Positions 237 to 15,686 of a stretch of DNA of 64,000 bases are shown one piece after another. Each line of letters starts with the position of its first letter. Within the stretch, counting starts at the first letter, position 1. This DNA is from Alloascoidea hylecoeti. Taxonomy: Eukaryota. The notes under the pieces are model-generated. The model made no database searches. It saw only the letters and a list, made by a program, of their open reading frames with translations, and was not told the DNA's origin. A program made the translations under genes and the position numbers. The stretch is from the NCBI GenBank assembly GCA_001600815.1, contig BCKZ01000009.1, positions 460,194-524,193 on the forward strand, read 5' to 3'.

Positions 237-3200
237 TTAGCCACTCCATCGATTGTTTTTAACCCAATCTACCAATTCTTCTTCTGCCGTTTCCATCTTG
301 GCGTGAAGTTGACTGACATATTTCCCAAAATTTTCAACTTTCTTATCGTGTTCTTCAACCAACGCTTGAATCTTATTCTCAAGGTCTTGCCTCATCTCAT
401 CTGATCTCTTTTGAATTACACCCTCTACAAATTTCATTCTTTTAATTAAACTAAAAGAGATTGCATTAAGTCCTTGAAATACTTGATCATGAAATACATC
501 TGGCTTTGACAAATTAGCCGGATCTTGAACATAATCATAATTAAGAATGCACTCTTTCCGTTTACCCAGAACCGTTGATTCATTTACCAATGTTTGCTCG
601 TTGGTATCCACAGTTATTTTACTCTCATCTGTTTCATCCTTGTGACTTACTGTTGGTTTGCTTGGAGATTTTGTCGCTTGTAACTCATTTACGGCTTTTT
701 TCGATTTTAATACTGCTTTATTAGATTCAGAGGGTATTGATTTTAATAGCTCATTTTCAGATTGATTAGTTTGGGTCAATATTTTTAATGGAGAATCTGC
801 ACGTTCCAGAGAGATACCCGTTAAACCTTTTTCATTAGCGTTATTATCATTACTCGTAACTTTTTGATTAGCAAATTGAATTTTAGTAGAAGAAGAAACT
901 GAATCCCGGTTGATTAGATTACTGCTTTTAGGACTAGTTTTCCTTCCTTCATCAATAAAGATGCCTGATACAGGATTTGAATTATTGTTAACCTTTCTTC
1001 CGTTGGCCCTTAAGTTTGAGGGATGTTTCGCCCCCTCTTGAATGCTATTTGATATCTTTGTCTTCTCCATTTCAGAATTTCTTTTATTTATGATTACCTC
1101 CACCTTATCCGTTTTATTATCTTTAGTAGGAAGAACATTAGTGGCCACTCTAGTCGCTGCTCTTATGGAGGGGGATATTCTATATTCATCGGCAGAATCA
1201 GAGGGGACAAAACGTGAATCTTGCCTCTCATGGTTTATTTCTGAGGAGTCAAGTGCCTGTGTTGTCTGCACTTTTACCTGCTCTTTTGTAGGAAGAGATT
1301 TACCAATTATCTTAACAACGATGGGTGATATTTTCTTAGTTTGTGATGGCGCTATTGTATCAATTGTAGGTGTAAGTTTCTCCAATCCTTTTGATAAAGC
1401 ATGCAACGGTTTTCTTCTTGGACGACCACGCTTTTTTGGAAGATCTGACAATTTTGTATTTGTAGAGTTTGAAGTTTTACTAGTGCTTTCGATTTGTGAT
1501 CCAATTCGGGGAATTCCCCTTAGCTTCTTGCCTTTTGCTGGTTTACGTACTCTTTTAGGGGACTTAACGTTTGGTATGGATGCCACAGGATTATCTGATA
1601 TAGTAGGGTTTGTGTTCAAATTTGGTGAAGATGAATCATCAAATTCCCAAAAATCTATAGTTTCATTACTTGTATTAGTATTTCTACCTCCTTTAGAATC
1701 CACATTTTTATGATCCTTATGTATTGTAGTGTTTGAAGTTTTTGTTTTTCTAGATATTGTTTTTTTACCGTTATATTTTTTCCCAGAGTCTGCAAGATTG
1801 TTCTGCTTCTGTGTTGGAATCGACAGAATTGTAGTCAAACGCTTATAGGTATGAACTGCCTTTTTTTCATATGAATCTTCTTTCTGTTGTTGAACCATAG
1901 TATCTTTTGACACATTAATACTAGTATCCTTTTTCAAACTAATGCTATTTTTTTCTCCAATTTTTGTAAGATTTCTTGCAATATCCGCCAATTGTGAAAT
2001 TGACATATCCACTTTATGAGTTGCATTCGAAGTGGAGGTTGCTTTTGTGATTGTAGAGGTTGTATATGGTAATGACAGATCGGAAAATTCTGTCAACTCT
2101 GAATCCTGAGAGGGAGTAGATGTTCTGTTTAAGCCAATTATTGACATTGATTTACTAATCTTTTTTTTAGATGGTGGTGTTATAATAGAAGACAATCCCA
2201 ATTTAATCGCTTTTACTACCGTATTGGTATCTTCTGATTTCTTAAGTATTAATTGTAGTGTACTTTCTTTAAAGCCAGACTTTAACGTCCACATGGAAAA
2301 CCTGTGCTGATATTTTGATGGAGTTTTAGAAACATCCAACACTGTTTTGAATGTGATTTTGTCACCTTCACTTGCAATATTATTGATGGTATTAAGGCAG
2401 ACTTCAAGAGGTTGCAACCTTAAGGTCTCGGTTGGTATAGGGTACCAGATAACAAGACTTTCTGTTAATATTTGACAATAAAGGGTACTTTTGTTAAAGT
2501 CATGATCTAATATTCTAGCTCCTGATAATGGAATCAACGAATGTTGTGCTCTGAAAATAATTCATCAACTTAGTTTAGAATAAAATTTTAAGTAGTAAAA
2601 AGAATTGAACATACTTCAGTTTCATTTGCTCACGGAGAAAAATTGACTCGACCATTTTTAAATATTTTATACATTCTTTATCACCAGCTTTAGCCCCCGG
2701 GGGAAATAAGGTATATAAATCTTCACAGTAATCTGCTGGCCATAATTTTGCAACAAATGGTATCCCAGTAGTAAATTTTCTTGAAGGTAATAAAGTTCCA
2801 ACTAATTCAACAAGATAGTTTCGAGTTGAAAAATCCTGGCACTCATAAATAATTCGTCCTAATACAAAATTGATCTTCTTTCGAACAAGGCCCAGGCTTG
2901 CTATTTTCAAATCATCAAATTTTTGAACAAGAGAGGTGAGAAGATGACACGCCTATATACGCGTATAAAAATGGTAAGTTAATATTCAGTCTGGTTAGAG
3001 ATCGGTTAAATGATAATATATATGAAGATATATACTTTCCAGGAATCATTTGAATTGGTAGAAACAAGATTGAATAAAGGTTCAATTACTAAGGTATCGA
3101 CCGTAGCATTAGGCTCGTTGGTATCGATCATGTCCAGTACTTCCTTAAATATCTAGTTAGACTTCAAGATAATATCAACGCAAAAATTATGTTAATTGAG

Positions 3201-3682: not shown

Positions 3683-3942
3683 TTTCAGACAGAGTCCTGT
3701 CCTAATTAAATCGGAAAATGTGGCTGTGAAACTTTTGGATTTCGAATAAACCGTGAAGAAGATGAGTGAGGAGGTTTGAATGGAACTAACATAGCACGTG
3801 TAAAATTGATCAATATTGGGAAGGTGCATATGCATTCATGCAGCATGAATTTTAGAAATCCTCGAGATATTATAATTAATTATGAAGCTCCTTAAATTTG
3901 CAAGGCACCAATATGAATATCTCTTACAACTATTACTTTCGA

Positions 3943-6741
3943 ATGTCAGAGCCCCCTAATCCAAATTTTAAGCCCACTCCCGAGGAAGTTCACGAACACC
4001 CAAAGGGAAATCAACTACCTCTTCCAGGCTTCCCTAAAGGCAAGCGTTCATCTTTTGATAGTGTACGAGAGGTTAACGATATAGTGGAAATCGGAGAAGA
4101 TGACGATGATGATGTTCAGATTATTGCTGTTCGAAACGTTTCCAAATATCCTTCAAATGGGTTTAACCCTTTAACTAGAACTCAAAATAAAGCTATGCCA
4201 TCCTCTTCAAAGTTGAGCTCAAATGTTCGGACAGTTAATATCCATGACAGTGATAGTGAAAGTGAGAATGAAGATGAACCTGGTCTTGTTTCCAAGGCCA
4301 GCAAATCAAACGATGTAGCAAAAAAGGGAGAATCAACTGAATCAATGGATTATATTAAGGTTGAAAATATCGACCCAAACGTTTCGTCTAGTGATAGTTT
4401 ACATTTAGTCTCTAATATTTCAAGAATCCCTACGGCTTCATGTTCAGCCAGTTCTTTTAGCCTTAACTCAGGAGATTCCAAGTCAACCAACGAAAATATT
4501 CAATATTACAGCCAGAATATAAACTATAATCAACACCCTGCTTCTGCAGGTGGTAGTTTTATTGACGTGAAAAGTGAAGATACTAGTAACAACTCCGTGT
4601 CCCAAGCATATGATGAAGAATGTTCCCGTGAACTTTCCAACCCCAAGTCCTTTAATTCTCAAATAAATAACACTAGTCAAACTGAATTCTCAATGAATGT
4701 TAGTAAGTTAGAGGAGACTGAAGCTTCACTTAAAGGTTTAAAAGAAAGCTTTAGTAAGGTTGCGCCTTCACCTTCCGATGAAGATGAAAAGGTTGTCTAT
4801 GAAATAGACAAGCCTAATCAAAAAATCCAAGGAGAATTATATTCTATTAATAATGTTAATGAAAACGCTGAGAACATTGAGAGAATCAATATCGAAAAAG
4901 ATGAGATAATTGAAAAGGAAAATAACGAAGAAACTCACCAGGAGGAGCTAGAGAAAGAAATAGGGAAAGTTGAGAACGATGAGAAGGACGAGAAAGGTGA
5001 GAGAGACGAGAAAGATGAAAAAGATGAAAAAGATGAAAAAGATGAGAAAGAGGATGTAGAGAGAGTTGAGAAGGAAGCTGGGAAGGTTGAGAAAGATGGG
5101 GGTGAGGAAGATGAGAAAGAGGAATCGGAGAAAGATAAGAAAGATGAGGTTGAAAAAGATGAAAAAGATGAAAAAGAAATTGACAATGAAATTAAGACAG
5201 GGGATCCAGAGAATGAAACCGAGAAATCAGAGATCAAAACTGAAAAAGAAACTGAGAATGGTGAAGGTGAGGGCGAGGATGAGGATGAATCTGATGCCGA
5301 TAGTATGTGTGCCACATTGGGTAGTGTTGAAGATGACGAAGATAACGAAGATAAAGAAGATGGTAAAGCTACAGATAAGACTGAAAAAGATTCATCAGGA
5401 GAAAATGGAGAAGGAAATAAAGAAGATAAAGAGACTAAAGAAGATAAAGAAACTAAAGAAACTTGGTATTACTCACCTGAAACATTCAAACCGGCGGCTA
5501 TTCCGTCAGAGCCTTTAATAATGAAGGCAAGAAACAGAGAAATAGAGGCCAAGAATAAAATGGAAGAGCACAATAAGGTAACTACCTCTTCTGGTGAAAC
5601 ACCTGGCTGGTTTAATCGGTTCTTCTCGAAACCTATCATATACGAATCTCAACAAGATCCGGAAAAAATAAAATCACCTGTTCGTCCTACATCTCCAATT
5701 TTAAAAGGTTCACTTTTAGATGAGATTGACTCTCGGAAAGAGGCCCGTAAAAATGAATTGGCTGTACGTTCAAAGTATGATAGACCTCCTTTTAATGTTG
5801 AATCAAAAGAGGAGGACGAGAAACCGGAAGGTACAGATAAGAGCCAGAAAGTTAACGATGATAAACCGAATGTAGTCAAACTTCATTCGTCATCTTCATC
5901 AGACTCTTCCAATGGTAGTGATTATGTGCCTCTAGGTGTTATCTATCAGGCTAATAAAAAAAACAAAAATGAGCCGCAGCCACGTCTCCAACAAGAAACA
6001 CCCATAGAGGAGAATTTATCACAGCTAAATAGCAACAGAATGCAGGTTTCCATGGGCTATGATGGTGCCAGCAACAGAGGTCTGATTGGTAGAGTTCCTG
6101 GTGGGGGAATTAAAGAGGATAGTAATACCCTTACGGGTCAGATTAATACTAGGAAAAGGATGGTACAAACAAATAACAAATTAAAATTTGTCCAAGAAAT
6201 GCAATCTGGTGTCAATTCTAAGTCGAGATTTAACTATAGAGCATCGCAAATGTTACCTACAACTGCAACTCAAGTGAAAGAGAAAATTCTAACACATTCA
6301 GATAGTGATAACAATTCTGATTATGCTCGTTATGGACAGGCAAATGATGCGAACTCTAGATTTAATTATAAAAAGGCTAAACCTAAACCTGATATGCAAA
6401 ATACACAAAGAAACTTAGCCAGTCATTCAAATGGGACGTCTAATTACAATCGGTACAGCAGTCAATTGCAAGCTCAAATTCCACAAAACCAGCCCATTCA
6501 AGCTCCCAACCAGTTTCAATTTCAAGCAGGTAACGCCAATACTGTCTACTCTAATTATATCAATCCTCAATTTCAAACCAACAGTATGTATTACAACCCG
6601 GCTACTAATATGTATCAAGGCTATAGCTATTCTAATAATCAGGGATATTACAATAACATGGCTTATGGACAATATCCAAATTCTATGATGAATACTAATG
6701 GGAATGTGGGCTATAACGGGTATAATACCCTTCGTAATTAA
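3943..6741 (+). CDS. Orphan intrinsically disordered protein with an acidic D/E/K tract and Q/N/Y-rich C-terminus
   Basis: Intronless ORF of about 930 codons, likely start MSEPPNP at 3943. No folded domain recognised. Confidence 0.75.
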   Translation: MSEPPNPNFKPTPEEVHEHPKGNQLPLPGFPKGKRSSFDSVREVNDIVEIGEDDDDDVQIIAVRNVSKYPSNGFNPLTRTQNKAMPSSSKLSSNVRTVNIHDSDSESENEDEPGLVSKASKSNDVAKKGESTESMDYIKVENIDPNVSSSDSLHLVSNISRIPTASCSASSFSLNSGDSKSTNENIQYYSQNINYNQHPASAGGSFIDVKSEDTSNNSVSQAYDEECSRELSNPKSFNSQINNTSQTEFSMNVSKLEETEASLKGLKESFSKVAPSPSDEDEKVVYEIDKPNQKIQGELYSINNVNENAENIERINIEKDEIIEKENNEETHQEELEKEIGKVENDEKDEKGERDEKDEKDEKDEKDEKEDVERVEKEAGKVEKDGGEEDEKEESEKDKKDEVEKDEKDEKEIDNEIKTGDPENETEKSEIKTEKETENGEGEGEDEDESDADSMCATLGSVEDDEDNEDKEDGKATDKTEKDSSGENGEGNKEDKETKEDKETKETWYYSPETFKPAAIPSEPLIMKARNREIEAKNKMEEHNKVTTSSGETPGWFNRFFSKPIIYESQQDPEKIKSPVRPTSPILKGSLLDEIDSRKEARKNELAVRSKYDRPPFNVESKEEDEKPEGTDKSQKVNDDKPNVVKLHSSSSSDSSNGSDYVPLGVIYQANKKNKNEPQPRLQQETPIEENLSQLNSNRMQVSMGYDGASNRGLIGRVPGGGIKEDSNTLTGQINTRKRMVQTNNKLKFVQEMQSGVNSKSRFNYRASQMLPTTATQVKEKILTHSDSDNNSDYARYGQANDANSRFNYKKAKPKPDMQNTQRNLASHSNGTSNYNRYSSQLQAQIPQNQPIQAPNQFQFQAGNANTVYSNYINPQFQTNSMYYNPATNMYQGYSYSNNQGYYNNMAYGQYPNSMMNTNGNVGYNGYNTLRN
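4975..5180 (+). repeat. In-frame 9-bp minisatellite (GATGAAAAA-like) encoding DEK repeats
   Basis: Tandem GATGAAAAA/GACGAGAAA units read directly; protein DEKDEKGERDEKDEKDEKDEKDEK. Confidence 0.9.
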
Positions 6742-7180: not shown

Positions 7181-7651
7181 ATGAAGTTAAGTCTTACATC
7201 CTTCAAATTTGCACAGCTTCTATCCAAATTACTTTTTCTTTTTATCATTTCTTCTCCTCATGTGTTAGGTGCTGAGGTTACAACAACAGAAGAAACAACA
7301 GAAGAAACAACAGAAGAAGACACGACCAGTGCCACTACTACTTCAAATACACTAATTTGGGTTACTGGCACTGACGCCAACGGTGTTACACAGACTACTC
7401 AATCTATCTATTCTCAGTTCTTTTCTTCCATGTATTCAACGGTCGCTAGTCCAACGTCAGGTACCATTGGGCTTGGAACTATTTCGGGTTCTGTCGGAAC
7501 TATACGCACTTATTCAGTCACAAGTGTTGGAGCTGGAAATGGGCTCAAAAATTTAAATATCCTCTATAGTACACAGGGGATTGGCTCACTGACATCATAT
7601 GCGTTTGGCTTGATCGGCACTGGTGTGTTATCTGCTCTACTATTTGTTTAA
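7181..7651 (+). CDS. KRE1: Kre1-like GPI-anchored cell-wall protein (beta-1,6-glucan assembly / killer toxin receptor family)
   Basis: Signal peptide, T/E-rich stalk, KRE1-type motif ([22 protein letters not shown]...[21 protein letters not shown]), and hydrophobic C-terminal GPI signal ([17 protein letters not shown]). Confidence 0.85.
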
Positions 7652-8509
7652 AAAATAAATCAGTAATGCATAATTTTAACGTTTGATTAAGAAAAATAAT
7701 TAACTGTGCAGATTTCCGCTTTAGTTGGTTTCTCTGATCTTCTTTTCAATCTCAACTTTCATCTTTTTCTTTTTCTTTTTCTTGTATTCTTTTGCATCAT
7801 TTGCATCATTATCCTTCAAATTTTTATATGAAGTATATAGTAACGATCATATTAAAGGTTTAAATTTTTTTGCCTAACTAGCCAAACATTCAATATATTA
7901 AACTTTATTAATATATTTTCATTAATCTCAACAAAACACAAGCATATATTGCTGAAATTAGAAAATAAATATTAATTTAACTTTTACTCAAATCAAATTC
8001 ATCTGTTTAGCAAATTAATAGAATGTAACTCATAATTTTAGTTATGTGATTTGTCGACAAAACAACACTCTAACTTAAATCATCATGATTCTAAATGATT
8101 TATGAACAATCTTATTGTGAATTACACTTCAGCTTAAATGGTTTACGAAAACAATAAATGGTAATGTTTCAAAATACTAGACGCATAGAATGTTTTAGTG
8201 TGTTGAAACTATTTTAAATTGATGTCTAATTGATAAAATAGTACTATCATTTATTACGTTTCAGATCATGATATCATAATTTCGGAGTACATGTAGTCGA
8301 CATTGATTTATTATTCCCTGTATAACATGTCCATAATACACCAGAGTCCATACCATATACTATAGGTCTCCACGTACTAGTCTATTGTATTAACTATGCT
8401 TCTAAGTCCCCAAAGAATCACCGCACTATTGCCCTGTAAAATTATATCATGGGGTTATAATCAATTCAAAATACAAAATAGATTAATTATGTGTGACTCT
8501 GAATAATTA

Positions 8510-8752
8510 ATGTAGACGGCATACCTGTATCCCTCAAATTCGGACGAGCCTATTTCGGATTCTGGGTGGGCAGAAAAAAATTCACCCAGGCTGAACTTTC
8601 GGGGTGCCCGAGTTCATTTTTATGCGGGTACTCTAAAAACGGTAACTGTGCGAAATAAAATACTCGGCCAAATACTCGGCCACAGTAAAAATACCGTACG
8701 GGTTAATTTATCACCATCCCCGTCCAGATAGGCTCGTCCGAAGGATACACGT
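8510..8752. mobile_element. Small MITE, pogo/Fot1 (Tc1-mariner superfamily)-like
   Basis: Perfect 15-bp inverted repeat TTCGGACGAGCCTAT (8539-8553 / 8728-8742), extended by TGTATCC/GGATACA. Termini ATGT...ACGT flanked by TA on both sides (8508-8509, 8753-8754). No ORF. Confidence 0.65.
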
Positions 8753-8770
8753 TAATTATATTGTGCTTAG

Positions 8771-9854
8771 ATACCACAAAAATCGATCTGTTTCATCCAC
8801 GAATTACAAAACCAACAATAATGATAAATTATTATAAATACTATCACTAAAATCTACTTAATCTCATAATTCTTATAATATTTGCTCAATGTTTTCTATC
8901 TATTTTTTATGTGGTGTGACTATTTTTCTATAATTTAGCGCCCAGTATATCCATTAATAAAATTTTTGTTATGCCACTATTAGTAGAAAGCTGCCATATT
9001 GATATCATATGATGCCTCGATGATCAAAAAATAGTGTAGATGTTTTCTTGAGGCAGTGATAGTAATATACTGTGAGAATTGAGAAGATCCACAAATTCTG
9101 AAAAAGTTCACAAATCACTGCAACTCAAAAGTTCCATTTTTAAAACAACCACTAAATCACCACCAGAAATATAAGTTAGGACTATGAAGGATTCTAATAA
9201 TTAAAAATAATCATAAGAACAAGCTGATATTCTTATTTGCCGAATATAATATAAAATATAACATTTGAAGCTGTCGTATGTGAAAGTTTCCGACAGATTT
9301 GGTATCTTAAGATTGACTCTTTGTACTCACTTTCACGGTAAATTATTAAGACAAGGCTCCCACATCAAAAACTACCATCCATTCTCGAAGACAAAGAATT
9401 TGTTCTGTAACTTTAATTTTGGGGTAAAAATAGTTGTAGCGCTAATACAGAACCTTTTTGTGGGCCGGTTGATGATTGTAGGCGTGTAGAAAATATCCTT
9501 AAATTTCCAACAAAGAACGCAATTCCAAAATATTATTCCTTCTGGATTTTTTACGACTGAAAACTTTATGGCCTTTTGACCCTCAGAAGAGCTCGGACAA
9601 GTTTGGATGGTGTAAAACGAGGAGGAGGTAACGAGAAAAATACGTTTCAGGAGATTGGATCCACTGAGCTAAACACCCATAGTTTGTAGAAGTAATCTTA
9701 CACCCCAACAAAACATACAAAAATAAAATATTAACCAAATATTTTTAGAATTATGAGATTAAGTAGATTCTAATGATAATATATATAATATTTATAATAA
9801 GGTATATTTGTTGCTGGTTTTGTAATTCGTGGTTGCAACATAACAATGTGGTGT
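8771..9854. mobile_element. Non-autonomous long-TIR element, family A copy 1
   Basis: Inverted arms of about 150 bp with perfect blocks CCACGAATTACAAAACCA (8797-8814 / 9815-9832) and AATCTACTTAATCTCATAATTCT (8851-8873 / 9747-9769). Interior is homologous to about 49.96-50.2 kb. Confidence 0.8.
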
Positions 9855-10908
9855 AGTATGCCGTCTATGGTTCGTGAATTGATGAATACCGATCTAATAG
9901 TTTCATTGATCAGGCGCTTAAATTTAGATCTTAAAGGGGGGTTCAGGCCATTTATTATGTCTCGTTTCTTCATCTATCCAAATTTTAATGTTACTGTTAC
10001 TAACCGTCTTCATTTGCAAAATTAGCTCATTGATTTCCAGACAAAAAAAAAAAAAAAACCACGTCAATTAATTCCTGAATAAATCGTAAACAAAATTCCA
10101 AATCTATAACTAAATAATTTCAGGAGTTATCGCTAAATAACATTTATCCAAATCGCCAATTTTTCTACGAAATCACTAAATCATTATAAAAAAAATTGCT
10201 AAATAGTTCATTATTGGATTGCTAATTATTTTAAGATGTCTTGACTAGATGGTTGGTTGTAAATAAAATTCCTATTACTATATAGAATAACCTAAGCAAA
10301 GTGTTATTTAATTTTGATAAACGTCGCAGATGAACTTCCAAACTCTTTGCAAATAAATTTAAAAAATATGGATGAAAAAACTGTAAACTTATAAAATTAA
10401 GTACTGAGCAAGAGAGAAACTCACTTTTTCCTTTCCAATACTAAACTGGAGGATACAACGAATGATTTGTGATCGATAGATCATTACTATTATTTCCATT
10501 AAAACCTGCGGATGATGGAATTTGTTTTCAGTGGGTGGAATAATTGGTCTATACTTAGTACTTAGATATAATATGTATCACAAAAGTTTGATAAGTATGT
10601 TTTGAATCACGATTACCAGGAAGTGAAATCAGCCCAACGTGGTAAGGCTTAGATAGTGGGTGGTAGTGGGTGTATAACACTGCATATCCACTTTATTAGA
10701 AAAGTGATTACTATAAATATTTATGGTTATTAGGTTTCTTGTAACGTGGCCGATAGATCTAGATAGTATGCATAAGGCAAAATGTTAACTTTATTAGCAA
10801 CCCCGTGACATGCTGTTTTTTGTTTCTTAGCAATTGTATAATATTATTCTATTCCTGTTTTCGTTAATAATCTACACAATAAATTAAAACAAATTTACTA
10901 ACTTCATT

Positions 10909-11229
10909 ATGCAACTCTCATACTTTTACACATTTGTTATATCGTTCATCGCTTGTTTCACTGCATACACAGTGGCTGCGGATACTGACACGGCCACGGA
11001 CACCGCGACAACCCCGACGACGACATCAGCCACATTAATATATGTCACCGTTACAAATGCAGCCGGTGGTATAGTTGTTACACAGTCTCCATTTTCTCAA
11101 AAGTTTTCATCTTTTTGGACTACTGTTGATGTTCCTAAAGCTGGGACCATTGGACTTGGGACTGTAACTCTCACTGAAAACATAGGTAAAGTGAGGACTT
11201 ATCCGACTACAACAATCAAAAGGAATTAA
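10909..11229 (+). CDS. Second KRE1-domain protein, secreted form with no GPI signal
   Basis: Signal peptide, D/T-rich stalk, KRE1-type motif (YVTVTNAAGGIVVTQSPFSQKFSS...PKAGTIGLGTVTLTENIGKVRTY). Ends PTTTIKRN-stop with no hydrophobic tail. Confidence 0.8.
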   Translation: MQLSYFYTFVISFIACFTAYTVAADTDTATDTATTPTTTSATLIYVTVTNAAGGIVVTQSPFSQKFSSFWTTVDVPKAGTIGLGTVTLTENIGKVRTYPTTTIKRN

Positions 11230-11873: not shown

Positions 11874-12346
<473 letters not shown>

Positions 12347-12416
12347 TTTGTAATATTATTGTATTGTTAATAGTTGAAGAAAGATCAAAAATGAGCCATA
12401 GTTTTTTGTTGCCTTC

Positions 12417-14367: not shown

Positions 14368-14473
14368 GTCTTTTGTTCTTTGCAATTAGGGATGCATTGT
14401 GTAAATAGAATTATTTTTCATTACGACCATTCCATTTTCAAGACTATTTTATACAGATTTATCTCATATATAT

Positions 14474-15235
14474 AACCAGCAACAAATATAAATTATTAAA
14501 AATAGTATTATTAAAATATTAATCTCATAATTCTGGTAATATATGTTTTATTTTTATTTTTGTGAGTTTCGTTGCGGTGTGAATGTTCTTCTAGGCTTTA
14601 ACGGGTTGAGTTCTCCTGTTCCAAGCTTCCGAAAAACATCTCGCGAAGGTATTGTAACAAGTGTGACATCGGTGGATCCTAGCCATCGTTGAAATGAAAT
14701 ATATGTTTCTATACTTTATTTGTCTATAGTTAGGTATAGATATCGATAGAAAGTACTCGGTATATAAAGAAAATAAATCTATAATATAAATTTTTAATTT
14801 GATACTATTATGATTTAAACTCAACCCTTTACAACTAATTACTCAATATGACATTGAAATGGATGAAATCAATTGCAATAGCTCTTGTCACACCTATCTT
14901 TGTTAACTTCAGATAATTGTGTGTAATTAGTGCTTTCCTTCTCTCAGATGTCAGAATTCCACTCTCGAATAGTTTTCAGGGGATCATCGAGCAATGTGGT
15001 GGAAAGTACTAATTACATATAATTATCCGGAAAAAACAAAGTAGATGCGTATCGAAAGTTTGGAGCTCGTGGACTCAATACTCTGAATCCTGGGAGAACG
15101 TTCACACCACAACAAGATTTACAAAAATAAAAATCAAACATATATTATCAGAATTATGAGATTAGGTAGATTTCAATAATACATTTTAATAACTTATATT
15201 TGTTGCTGGTTTTGCAATTCGTGCTTGAAATGTAA
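14474..15235. mobile_element. Non-autonomous long-TIR element, family A copy 2
   Basis: Inverted blocks AACCAGCAACAAATATAA (14474-14491 / 15194-15211), TAATCTCATAATTCTG (14520-14535 / 15149-15164) and GGTGTGAATGTTCT/AGAACGTTCACACC. Same TIR sequence as 8.8-9.85 kb; left outer end truncated. Confidence 0.8.
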
Positions 15236-15686
15236 CTTAGCGTTGCCTAATATGTCAGCAAAACTTTGGAGCTTCAGCTCAAGGTTAATTCTAAATGAAT
15301 TAAAATCCAAGCAAGTGATTGCAATATAAAATTTAGAATAAGAAAAGTTTCAAATAACTTTTCATTTTATCTCTATCATAGAGAAGTTACGAGAAAGATT
15401 AACTGACCACATATTTAAGCGTTCTTATAAATGTATAATAATCTAAAGCCTTTTGGTTTGGAGTATTTACGTATACATATGCCATGGTATTTTTAGATTA
15501 ATATGAAATTATGATTTTTCAAAAGGTAATCACATTAGTATAAATATACAGTAACTACGTTACGGTATTATATATATAGATCCCCTTTTCTGTTTCACTA
15601 GATTTATCATAAATTATCCACAACTGATAGTTCTGGTGTTTATATACGGTGGTGTATATAGGCTTTCATTCAAGATTCTTAAAGAG

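What the first reader, a model, noticed from the sequence alone, without database searches (positions are those of the whole stretch)
7181..11229. Tandem KRE1 pair: GPI-anchored receptor plus anchorless secreted paralogue (candidate killer-toxin decoy)
Seen: two same-strand KRE1-domain genes 3.3 kb apart. The first ends in a hydrophobic GPI signal. The second keeps the signal peptide, stalk and full domain but stops at TTTIKRN; the one shifted downstream frame I translated gave no hydrophobic tail, and no convincing splice restores one. The domains are well diverged, so the copy is old yet intact. Known: S. cerevisiae Kre1 is the membrane receptor for K1 killer toxin and acts in beta-1,6-glucan assembly. 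Inference: a receptor/soluble-decoy module for toxin defence, or a mobile glucan-assembly factor. This is my best candidate for an undescribed system here.
Basis: partly seen in the sequence, partly recalled or inferred. Interest (0 to 1): 0.72.

Follow-up and report, generated by a model that had tools for sequence, protein, structure and literature searches.

The report
Anchorless secreted Kre1 paralogue in yeasts
A yeast carries a normal membrane-anchored copy of the cell-wall protein Kre1 next to an intact copy without the anchor; the anchorless form turns out to be a recurring, unnamed type in several budding-yeast lineages, probably a secreted wall-building helper and possibly a toxin decoy.

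Summary
7181-7651 encodes a 156-aa KRE1 protein with a hydrophobic tail. 10909-11229 encodes a 106-aa KRE1 protein that stops two residues after the domain. No splice, frameshift or readthrough restores a tail.

It is not a one-off. The same genome has a second anchored-plus-anchorless tandem pair on another contig with unrelated flanks. Of 196 non-redundant KRE1 homologues, 47 lack the tail, and tail lengths fall into two sharp classes. Named anchorless proteins come from nine species of Wickerhamomyces, Cyberlindnera, Komagataella, Pichia and Candida boidinii. K. phaffii has both forms, not adjacent, and its anchorless gene is transcribed.

The decoy reading has no direct support. The family's core residues are kept, this genome has also expanded KRE9 and KRE6, and an engineered anchorless Kre1 fragment was exported and partly complemented kre1 (Boone 1990). 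For a decoy: the two anchorless copies are more diverged than the two anchored ones (28 against 46 of 63 identical).

Best reading: a secreted beta-1,6-glucan assembly paralogue (0.55). Decoy: 0.15. New variant of a known family.

The parts
7181..7651 (+). Gene A: anchored KRE1 protein, 156 aa (signal peptide, acidic Thr-rich stalk, KRE1 domain, GPI-type tail)
   Evidence: ORF; Pfam PF17056 E 9e-24; hydropathy
7334..7528 (+). KRE1 domain of gene A (residues 52-116)
7529..7648 (+). Spacer and hydrophobic C-terminus of gene A; predicted GPI attachment signal
   Evidence: hydropathy peak 2.1, 40 residues after the domain; prediction only
8770..9855 (.). Dispersed element with long terminal inverted repeats (MITE-like) between the two genes; ends approximate; not needed for the pair
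   Evidence: inverted arms 8782-8879/9750-9847 and 8827-8912/9708-9793; 81 matches genome-wide, a lower bound
10712..10719 (+). TATA-like box 197 nt before gene B; the C1 anchorless gene has the same 8-mer at -201
   Evidence: pattern match only, in AT-rich DNA
10909..11229 (+). Gene B: anchorless KRE1 protein, 106 aa (signal peptide, short Thr/Asp stalk, whole KRE1 domain, stop)
   Evidence: ORF; Pfam E 1e-19; no tail by frame, readthrough or splice scan
11017..11220 (+). KRE1 domain of gene B (residues 37-104); modelled as one confident beta-hairpin followed by an extended chain

Best explanation
Gene B encodes a secreted, unanchored Kre1 that does the family's ordinary job outside the plasma membrane. 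SHOWN: intact ORF, whole KRE1 domain, no tail, form recurring across yeast lineages. INFERRED from hydropathy and 31% Ser/Thr: it enters the secretory pathway and is O-mannosylated. INFERRED from Kre1 genetics: it helps extend or mature beta-1,6-glucan chains, but from the periplasm or wall and not from a GPI tether. INFERRED, untested: because the domain models as a lone hairpin plus an extended chain, it probably acts by docking on a partner (anchored Kre1, Kre9/Knh1, Kre6/Skn1 or the glucan). The tandem pair arose by local duplication with loss of the tail, and the pair may then have been copied as a block.
For: 1) The core of the domain is kept in the anchorless class: four glycines of the G-x-I-G-L-G...G motif are invariant in 44 of 44 anchorless rows. 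2) Stops cluster at the domain end: 45 of 196 rows end within -5 to +10 residues, 3 at +11 to +18, 143 at +19 to +50. 3) The glucan pathway is expanded in this genome: 4 KRE1, 2 KRE9/KNH1, 5 KRE6/SKN1 matches, while two control genes are single-copy. 4) Boone 1990 (PMC2200168; parts 3-6 of 9 read): S. cerevisiae Kre1 without its last 59 residues was exported to the medium and partly complemented kre1 in the killer-sensitivity assay, so the tether is not strictly needed. 5) kre1 loss shortens beta-1,6-glucan in S. cerevisiae (same paper) and C. albicans (PMC11620752, passages). 6) The K. phaffii anchorless gene PAS_chr3_0288 is among 98 genes induced on a microarray (PMC5349127, section 6). 7) dN/dS of the A/B domains is about 0.26 (near saturation, indicative only).
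Against: No expression, secretion or glucan data exist for gene B. Boone's construct was overexpressed, complemented only partly, and also lacked the second half of the KRE1 domain (cut at residue 254; the domain runs from about 227 to 285 in that paper's Fig. 1), so it does not model B exactly and does not test a decoy. The two anchorless copies share 28 of 63 domain residues against 46 of 63 for the anchored copies (Fisher p 0.002), which is not what a strict housekeeping role predicts. B has a 2-residue insertion and lacks one otherwise common glycine. The K. phaffii induction was by YAP1 overexpression, and that paper lists the gene under 'Unknown', not as a wall gene. A soluble protein with no visible retention signal may simply leave the wall.
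Confidence: 0.55

Rival explanations
1. Soluble decoy. The anchorless protein carries the toxin-binding part of Kre1 and captures K1/K2-type killer toxins in the wall or medium before they reach the anchored receptor. A variant: it keeps the glucan function while offering no membrane docking site.
For: A C-terminal region of S. cerevisiae Kre1 binds K1 in vitro and is necessary and sufficient for killing spheroplasts (PMC12637454, passage), and the KRE1 domain is the conserved C-terminal part. The anchorless copies here are more diverged than the anchored ones. The anchored-then-anchorless order occurs twice in this genome. Fast-evolving toxin-defence genes exist in yeast (KTD1; PMC9974470, passages). 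Several anchorless carriers belong to genera known for killer strains (recalled).
Against: No binding evidence; the exact K1-binding residues were not seen (Breinig 2002 not read). K1 binds beta-1,6-glucan first, so a Kre1 that promotes glucan should raise sensitivity, as in Boone 1990. Kre1 alone does not set sensitivity: C. albicans Kre1 is usable by K1 yet the species is resistant (PMC8218651, passage). K1-like genes were reported in six non-Saccharomyces species with a sporadic distribution (PMC7888664, passages), whereas the anchorless form is widespread and typically one or two copies where named. No dN/dS above 1. The divergence contrast also fits an older split or relaxed constraint.
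Confidence: 0.15
2. A secreted O-mannoprotein that has moved to another job: a stage- or stress-specific wall or matrix protein (adhesion, septum, spore or biofilm), using the same binding motif without acting on bulk beta-1,6-glucan.
For: Faster change in the anchorless copies; the anchorless domains are more basic (mean net charge +1.6 in 44 rows against 0.0 in 136; rows are not independent); class-linked residues such as Pro after the final Tyr (10 of 44 against 0 of 136); induction by YAP1 in K. phaffii.
Against: No new domain is added; the core is unchanged; the tree does not resolve a separate anchorless clade.
Confidence: 0.2
3. Gene B is a truncated dead duplicate, an assembly error, or a gene whose tail is added by splicing.
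For: No transcript of B was seen. Earlier scan notes describe other decaying or domain-losing tandem duplicates in this genome (unchecked). For the C1 copy, 2 of 352 splice combinations give a hydrophobic tail. Many homologues are unnamed gene calls that may ignore introns; 33 of 44 anchorless tree rows start with Met and a hydrophobic N-terminus, 11 do not.
Against: Intact frame and start context with synonymous sites near saturation; the same end in a second allele (P0001) and, for the C1 copy, in P0004 from another source; 0 of 219 splice options for B, and the 2 for C1 use non-consensus donors with 1.2-kb introns and are below the 5.7% background; no remnant of a tail downstream (best E 0.07); anchorless proteins annotated in nine named species.
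Confidence: 0.07

Closest known systems
Saccharomyces cerevisiae Kre1p (313 aa; Pfam PF17056)
   Same: Signal peptide, Ser/Thr-rich stalk, KRE1 domain; gene A also has the hydrophobic C-terminus. Known roles: beta-1,6-glucan maturation and K1/K2 membrane receptor.
   Different: A is half as long and lacks the RPDPS-type segment seen before the domain in long Kre1 proteins. B has no anchor signal at all.
Short anchored KRE1/PGA1-type proteins of Candida, Spathaspora, Metschnikowia and Lipomyces
   Same: About 110-160 aa, same layout as gene A; Spathaspora passalidarum has two.
   Different: All named ones keep the tail. The three metagenome loci fetched hold a single anchored gene with no second copy in the DNA held.
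Uncharacterised anchorless KRE1 proteins: K. phaffii PAS_chr3_0288, W. anomalus WICANDRAFT_83413, W. ciferrii BN7_1310, W. pijperi WICPIJ_009130, Cy. jadinii CYBJADRAFT_86317, Cy. fabianii CYFA0S11e02080g, P. kudriavzevii C5L36_0B09980, P. kluyveri DAPK24_050720, C. boidinii (two)
   Same: Signal peptide, stalk, whole KRE1 domain, stop within about 8 residues. These are the real class-mates of gene B.
   Different: Annotated as hypothetical, 'putative secreted protein' or 'Protein KRE1'; no function found in the searches. In K. phaffii the anchored copy is far away; a tandem layout was seen only in this genome.
Kre9/Knh1
   Same: Cell-surface factors of beta-1,6-glucan assembly (PMC13604645, passages); the two copies in this genome also end without a hydrophobic tail. 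A precedent for an untethered factor in this pathway.
   Different: Unrelated domains (PF10342 and PF05390).
KTD1/DUP240 defence factor against K28
   Same: Duplicated yeast genes acting against a killer toxin.
   Different: Membrane proteins with codons under positive selection and shown protection; neither is shown here.

Membership tests
KRE1 family (PF17056) | KRE1 domain above the Pfam cut-off | tested here: met
   A 83.4 bits, B 70.4 bits, cut-off 27; C1 copies 77 and 78.8
KRE1 family (PF17056) | N-terminal signal peptide | tested here: met
   Hydropathy peaks 2.2-2.7 in the first 30 residues of all four copies; hydropathy only, no SignalP
KRE1 family (PF17056) | Ser/Thr-rich, no N-glycosylation sites | tested here: met
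   31-33% S+T and no NxS/T in all four; O-mannosylation itself not shown
Canonical GPI-anchored Kre1 | C-terminal hydrophobic GPI signal, gene A | tested here: met
   40-residue tail, peak 2.1; omega site not predicted
Canonical GPI-anchored Kre1 | C-terminal hydrophobic GPI signal, gene B | tested here: not met
   2-residue tail; no rescue by frame, readthrough or splice. B is therefore not filed as a canonical Kre1
Canonical GPI-anchored Kre1 | Needed for beta-1,6-glucan amount or chain length | not testable with these tools
   Needs complementation or deletion
Canonical GPI-anchored Kre1 | Binds K1/K2 toxin | not testable with these tools
   No toxin sequence or binding assay was available
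Soluble decoy receptor | Keeps the receptor's ligand-binding region without the anchor | tested here: inconclusive
   Whole KRE1 domain kept; the K1-binding residues are described only as a C-terminal region in the passage read
Soluble decoy receptor | Arms-race signature (positive selection, copy turnover) | tested here: inconclusive
   B/B' more diverged than A/A', but pairwise dN/dS below 1 with dS saturated; no close relatives for a site test
Soluble decoy receptor | Protects cells from toxin | not testable with these tools
   Needs a killing assay
Pseudogene | Frameshifts, internal stops or neutral drift | tested here: not met
   Intact frame, whole domain, conserved stop position across the class

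The most novel reading that the evidence does not exclude
About a quarter of the KRE1 homologues found are a so far unnamed secreted class that uncouples Kre1's wall function from its role as toxin receptor. They bind K1/K2-type ionophoric killer toxins away from the membrane and so form a soluble-decoy defence spread across budding yeasts. In this genome the class is paired twice with its own anchored receptor and diverges faster than it.
Probability: 0.15. Interest if true: 0.8.

Novelty: new variant of a known kind. Interest (0 to 1): 0.43.

Why it matters
Kre1's molecular function is still described as unclear (PMC11620752), and it is treated as a GPI-anchored protein. A natural soluble form of about 80 mature residues separates the domain from the anchor. 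It gives a small, secretable handle for finding out what the domain binds, and a tractable test case exists in K. phaffii (PAS_chr3_0288 beside anchored PAS_chr3_0973). If it neutralised toxin it would be a new kind of yeast defence and could help explain species differences in K1 sensitivity. If it only builds wall, it still changes the picture of where beta-1,6-glucan is matured.

Tried and rejected
RNA evidence: no RNA holder was listed. Three same-study metatranscriptome runs gave 0, 0 and 1 laid contigs, the one a 36-nt low-complexity match. This says nothing about expression.

Single-protein homologue search with B found only P0001; profiles were needed. The 'longer' search scored 7999 candidates and gave 16 hits, too weak to say whether Wickerhamomyces, Cyberlindnera or Pichia also have anchored copies.

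Metagenome scan: 3 of 52 candidate stretches were relatives, all anchored and single; no context for anchorless genes elsewhere.

Trees on 62 columns do not resolve origins. Quick tree: 180 rows, label changes 12 against 39.5 shuffled. Careful tree: 45 hand-picked rows, 9 changes, bootstrap not settled, A and A' not joined. AU tests on 92 rows rejected neither one anchorless clade (p 0.27) nor B with B' as sisters (p 0.72). Rows left out of the tree: 3 copies of own genes, 10 cluster mates, 1 false hit, 2 likely fragments, the 'other' class, and rows covering under 50 profile positions.

Structure: AlphaFold of mature B, mean pLDDT 74.5, pTM 0.33, one hairpin. An earlier job folded homologue P0003, not B (pLDDT 63.8). 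Foldseek found nothing at E 0.001 or better; the PDB sequence search gave one hit at E 2.6; ESM Atlas top score 0.82, uninformative. Complex prediction of A with B was not available, so partner binding is untested.

Whole-genome duplication or hybrid origin as the source of the second pair: rejected, since the flanks differ and 2 of 2 control genes are single. Carriage of the pair inside the inverted-repeat element: not supported; copies lie between A and B and upstream of A', not around the pairs. DUF5341 (recalled as a K2-type toxin domain) gave no match in this genome, but no control rang either.

Literature: ten searches listed no paper whose title or abstract start describes natural anchorless Kre1 or a Kre1 decoy. 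Most subscription journals are not held. Breinig 2004 was not held; Breinig 2002, Roemer 1995 and Boone 1991 were seen only as citations. bioRxiv supplements are closed and could hold secretome data on the K. phaffii gene.
Full report
Observation. The window is from an AT-rich (about 33% GC), intron-bearing budding yeast whose assembly has 24.8 Mb in 136 contigs. Gene A (7181-7651) and gene B (10909-11229) are intact same-strand ORFs 3257 nt apart. Both pass the Pfam KRE1 cut-off (83 and 70 bits against 27) and share 30 of 61 domain residues. Both begin with a hydrophobic stretch and are 31-33% Ser/Thr. A has 40 residues after the domain ending in a hydrophobic run. B has two. These signal calls rest on hydropathy alone.

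Is the missing tail real? The three frames behind B close early, and readthrough adds 11 polar-to-mixed residues. Of 219 GT-AG combinations none gives a GPI-like end, against 90 of 1572 in intergenic background; the same classifier calls both anchored genes correctly. All four donors lie before the conserved Arg96/Tyr98. No remnant of A's tail lies downstream. A database protein one residue different from B ends identically.

A second pair. The genome has 4 KRE1 matches (a lower bound). The other two lie in tandem on contig C1 in the same order: a 153-aa tailed gene, 1908 nt, then a 94-aa tailless gene. The flanks (amino-acid permease and zinc-ribbon repeats on one side, a Snf7 gene and others on the other) do not match the window. 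Two control genes are single-copy, so this is not a duplicated genome. The anchored copies share 46 of 63 domain residues and the anchorless copies 28 of 63 (p 0.002). Synonymous sites are at or near saturation in all six comparisons (pS 0.66-0.76), with dN/dS about 0.26 for A/B. Block duplication with faster change in B is allowed (AU p 0.72 for B with B') but not shown; the free trees do not join them.

A recurring form of the family. I pooled 78 hits, the best 150 of 271, 10 cluster mates and the 4 own genes: 210 rows. After dropping 14 rows (3 copies of own genes, 10 cluster mates, 1 false hit), 196 remain: 141 GPI-like, 47 tailless, 8 other. Tail lengths are bimodal: 45 rows end within -5 to +10 of the domain end, 3 at +11 to +18, 143 at +19 to +50, 4 beyond, 1 short. 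The pool is biased towards the query, and many rows are unnamed gene calls; 33 of the 44 tailless rows in the tree look complete. I looked up 30 chosen proteins. With names, tailless proteins come from nine species: W. anomalus (33 contigs), W. ciferrii, W. pijperi, Cy. jadinii, Cy. fabianii, K. phaffii, P. kudriavzevii (38 contigs), P. kluyveri and C. boidinii (two genes). By my recall these fall in Phaffomycetales and Pichiales. Named proteins from Candida/Spathaspora-type yeasts, Lipomyces, Dipodascopsis, Tortispora, Ascoidea, Kluyveromyces, Kazachstania and Lachancea have tails, so the anchored state is probably ancestral (inference). The tailless label clusters on the tree (12 changes against 39.5 shuffled), which points to stable lineages and not scattered truncations. 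One origin is neither shown nor rejected. K. phaffii holds a 95-aa tailless gene and a 248-aa tailed gene whose locus tags are 685 apart, so coexistence is shared and adjacency is not. The tailless K. phaffii gene is listed among induced genes in a YAP1 overexpression microarray (PMC5349127; passage, section 6 and a supplement search).

Anatomy. Four glycines of the G-x-I-G-L-G...G motif are invariant in all 44 tailless rows. Tailless domains are more basic, and 10 of 44 (B among them) have Pro after the last Tyr against 0 of 136 tailed rows; kinship inflates both contrasts. AlphaFold with 126 sequences gives B one confident hairpin (residues 21-39 of the mature chain, pLDDT about 95) and an otherwise extended chain, with no fold match. 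I infer a motif that folds on a partner; this was not tested.

Mechanism. Known: Kre1 loss cuts beta-1,6-glucan by about 40% and halves chain length in S. cerevisiae (Boone 1990, PMC2200168; passages and parts 3-6 of 9) and shortens chains in C. albicans (PMC11620752, passages). K1 binds that glucan first and then needs anchored Kre1; a C-terminal region of Kre1 binds K1 in vitro (PMC12637454, passages; PMC5705960, passages; PMC11727844, passages). In Boone 1990 a Kre1 lacking the last 59 residues was exported and partly restored killer sensitivity to a kre1 mutant. That shows the anchor is not strictly required for function, but the construct also lost half of the KRE1 domain and so cannot test a decoy. 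This genome has also multiplied KRE9/KNH1 (2) and KRE6/SKN1 (5). Together these favour a secreted wall-assembly paralogue (0.55). A decoy (0.15) keeps two arguments: the retained C-terminal domain and the faster divergence. Against it stand the wide, low-copy distribution, the absence of any dN/dS above 1, and the point that Kre1 does not by itself set sensitivity (PMC8218651, passages). Another secreted wall or matrix role gets 0.2 and a dead or spliced gene 0.07. Unchecked scan notes describe other tandem duplicates with lost parts in this genome; if right, adjacency alone says little about a module.

Other papers seen: PMC13604645 (passages), PMC10282164 (passage; reports Kre1 missing from Agaricomycetes), PMC7888664 (passages), PMC9016338 (12 of 28 passages), PMC9974470 (passages), bioRxiv 10.1101/2025.02.12.637931 (passage, not relevant). 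Breinig 2002 and 2004, Roemer 1995 and Boone 1991 were not read.

Novelty. B belongs to the KRE1 domain family but fails the GPI feature of canonical Kre1. Ten searches of the held library listed nothing on natural anchorless Kre1; subscription journals are largely missing, so this is weak. Verdict: a real, apparently unremarked variant of a known family, wider than this window, with an easy test in K. phaffii. The defence reading remains a minority hypothesis. Interest 0.43.

Noticed in passing
G000:C1:757947-758408 and 760317-760601 (L005:5948-6409, 8318-8602): Second tandem KRE1 pair, tailed 153 aa then tailless 94 aa, with flanks unrelated to the window.
   Followed up: yes
window 8770-9855 and 14470-15236; L005:4309-4817: Dispersed family with about 100-150 nt terminal inverted repeats, 81 matches genome-wide. 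No transposase or target-site duplication seen. A 3.9-kb copy (L031:256-4122) holds broken frames that resemble a LINE endonuclease by eye (recalled likeness; no Pfam hit).
   Followed up: partly
L005:2349-3137, L007:8845-9573 and L007:2588-3925 (all - strand): Two near-identical ORFs about 3.5 kb apart and a diverged third, upstream of the C1 pair; weak GRF-like zinc-ribbon hit below cut-off in two. They resemble Mutator-type DNA-binding domains (recalled).
   Followed up: no
genome-wide (L024-L030): Five KRE6/SKN1 and two KRE9/KNH1 matches; one KRE6/SKN1 gene is on the window's own contig.
   Followed up: partly
window 3913-6741 (+) and 237-2294 (-): Two long low-complexity ORFs (942 and 685 aa) upstream of gene A with no Pfam match above cut-off.
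   Followed up: no
window about 11880-12350 (-): RPS30-like gene (recalled likeness) with an intron right after the ATG: donor GTAAGT, weak branch site TATTAAT, about 280 nt.
   Followed up: partly
L032:1620-2780 (-): RTA1-family gene between two copies of the inverted-repeat end; both ends face the same way, so it is not packaged in one element.
   Followed up: partly
P0001 against gene B residue 74; W. anomalus cluster P0010, P0082-P0085: The one difference between the two alleles of B falls in the same alignment column as a D/E polymorphism among W. anomalus members. The column is variable in general, so this may be chance.
   Followed up: no
P0036 and P0131 (Candida boidinii): This species has two different tailless KRE1 proteins; no tailed one was named in the searches, which were incomplete.
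   Followed up: no
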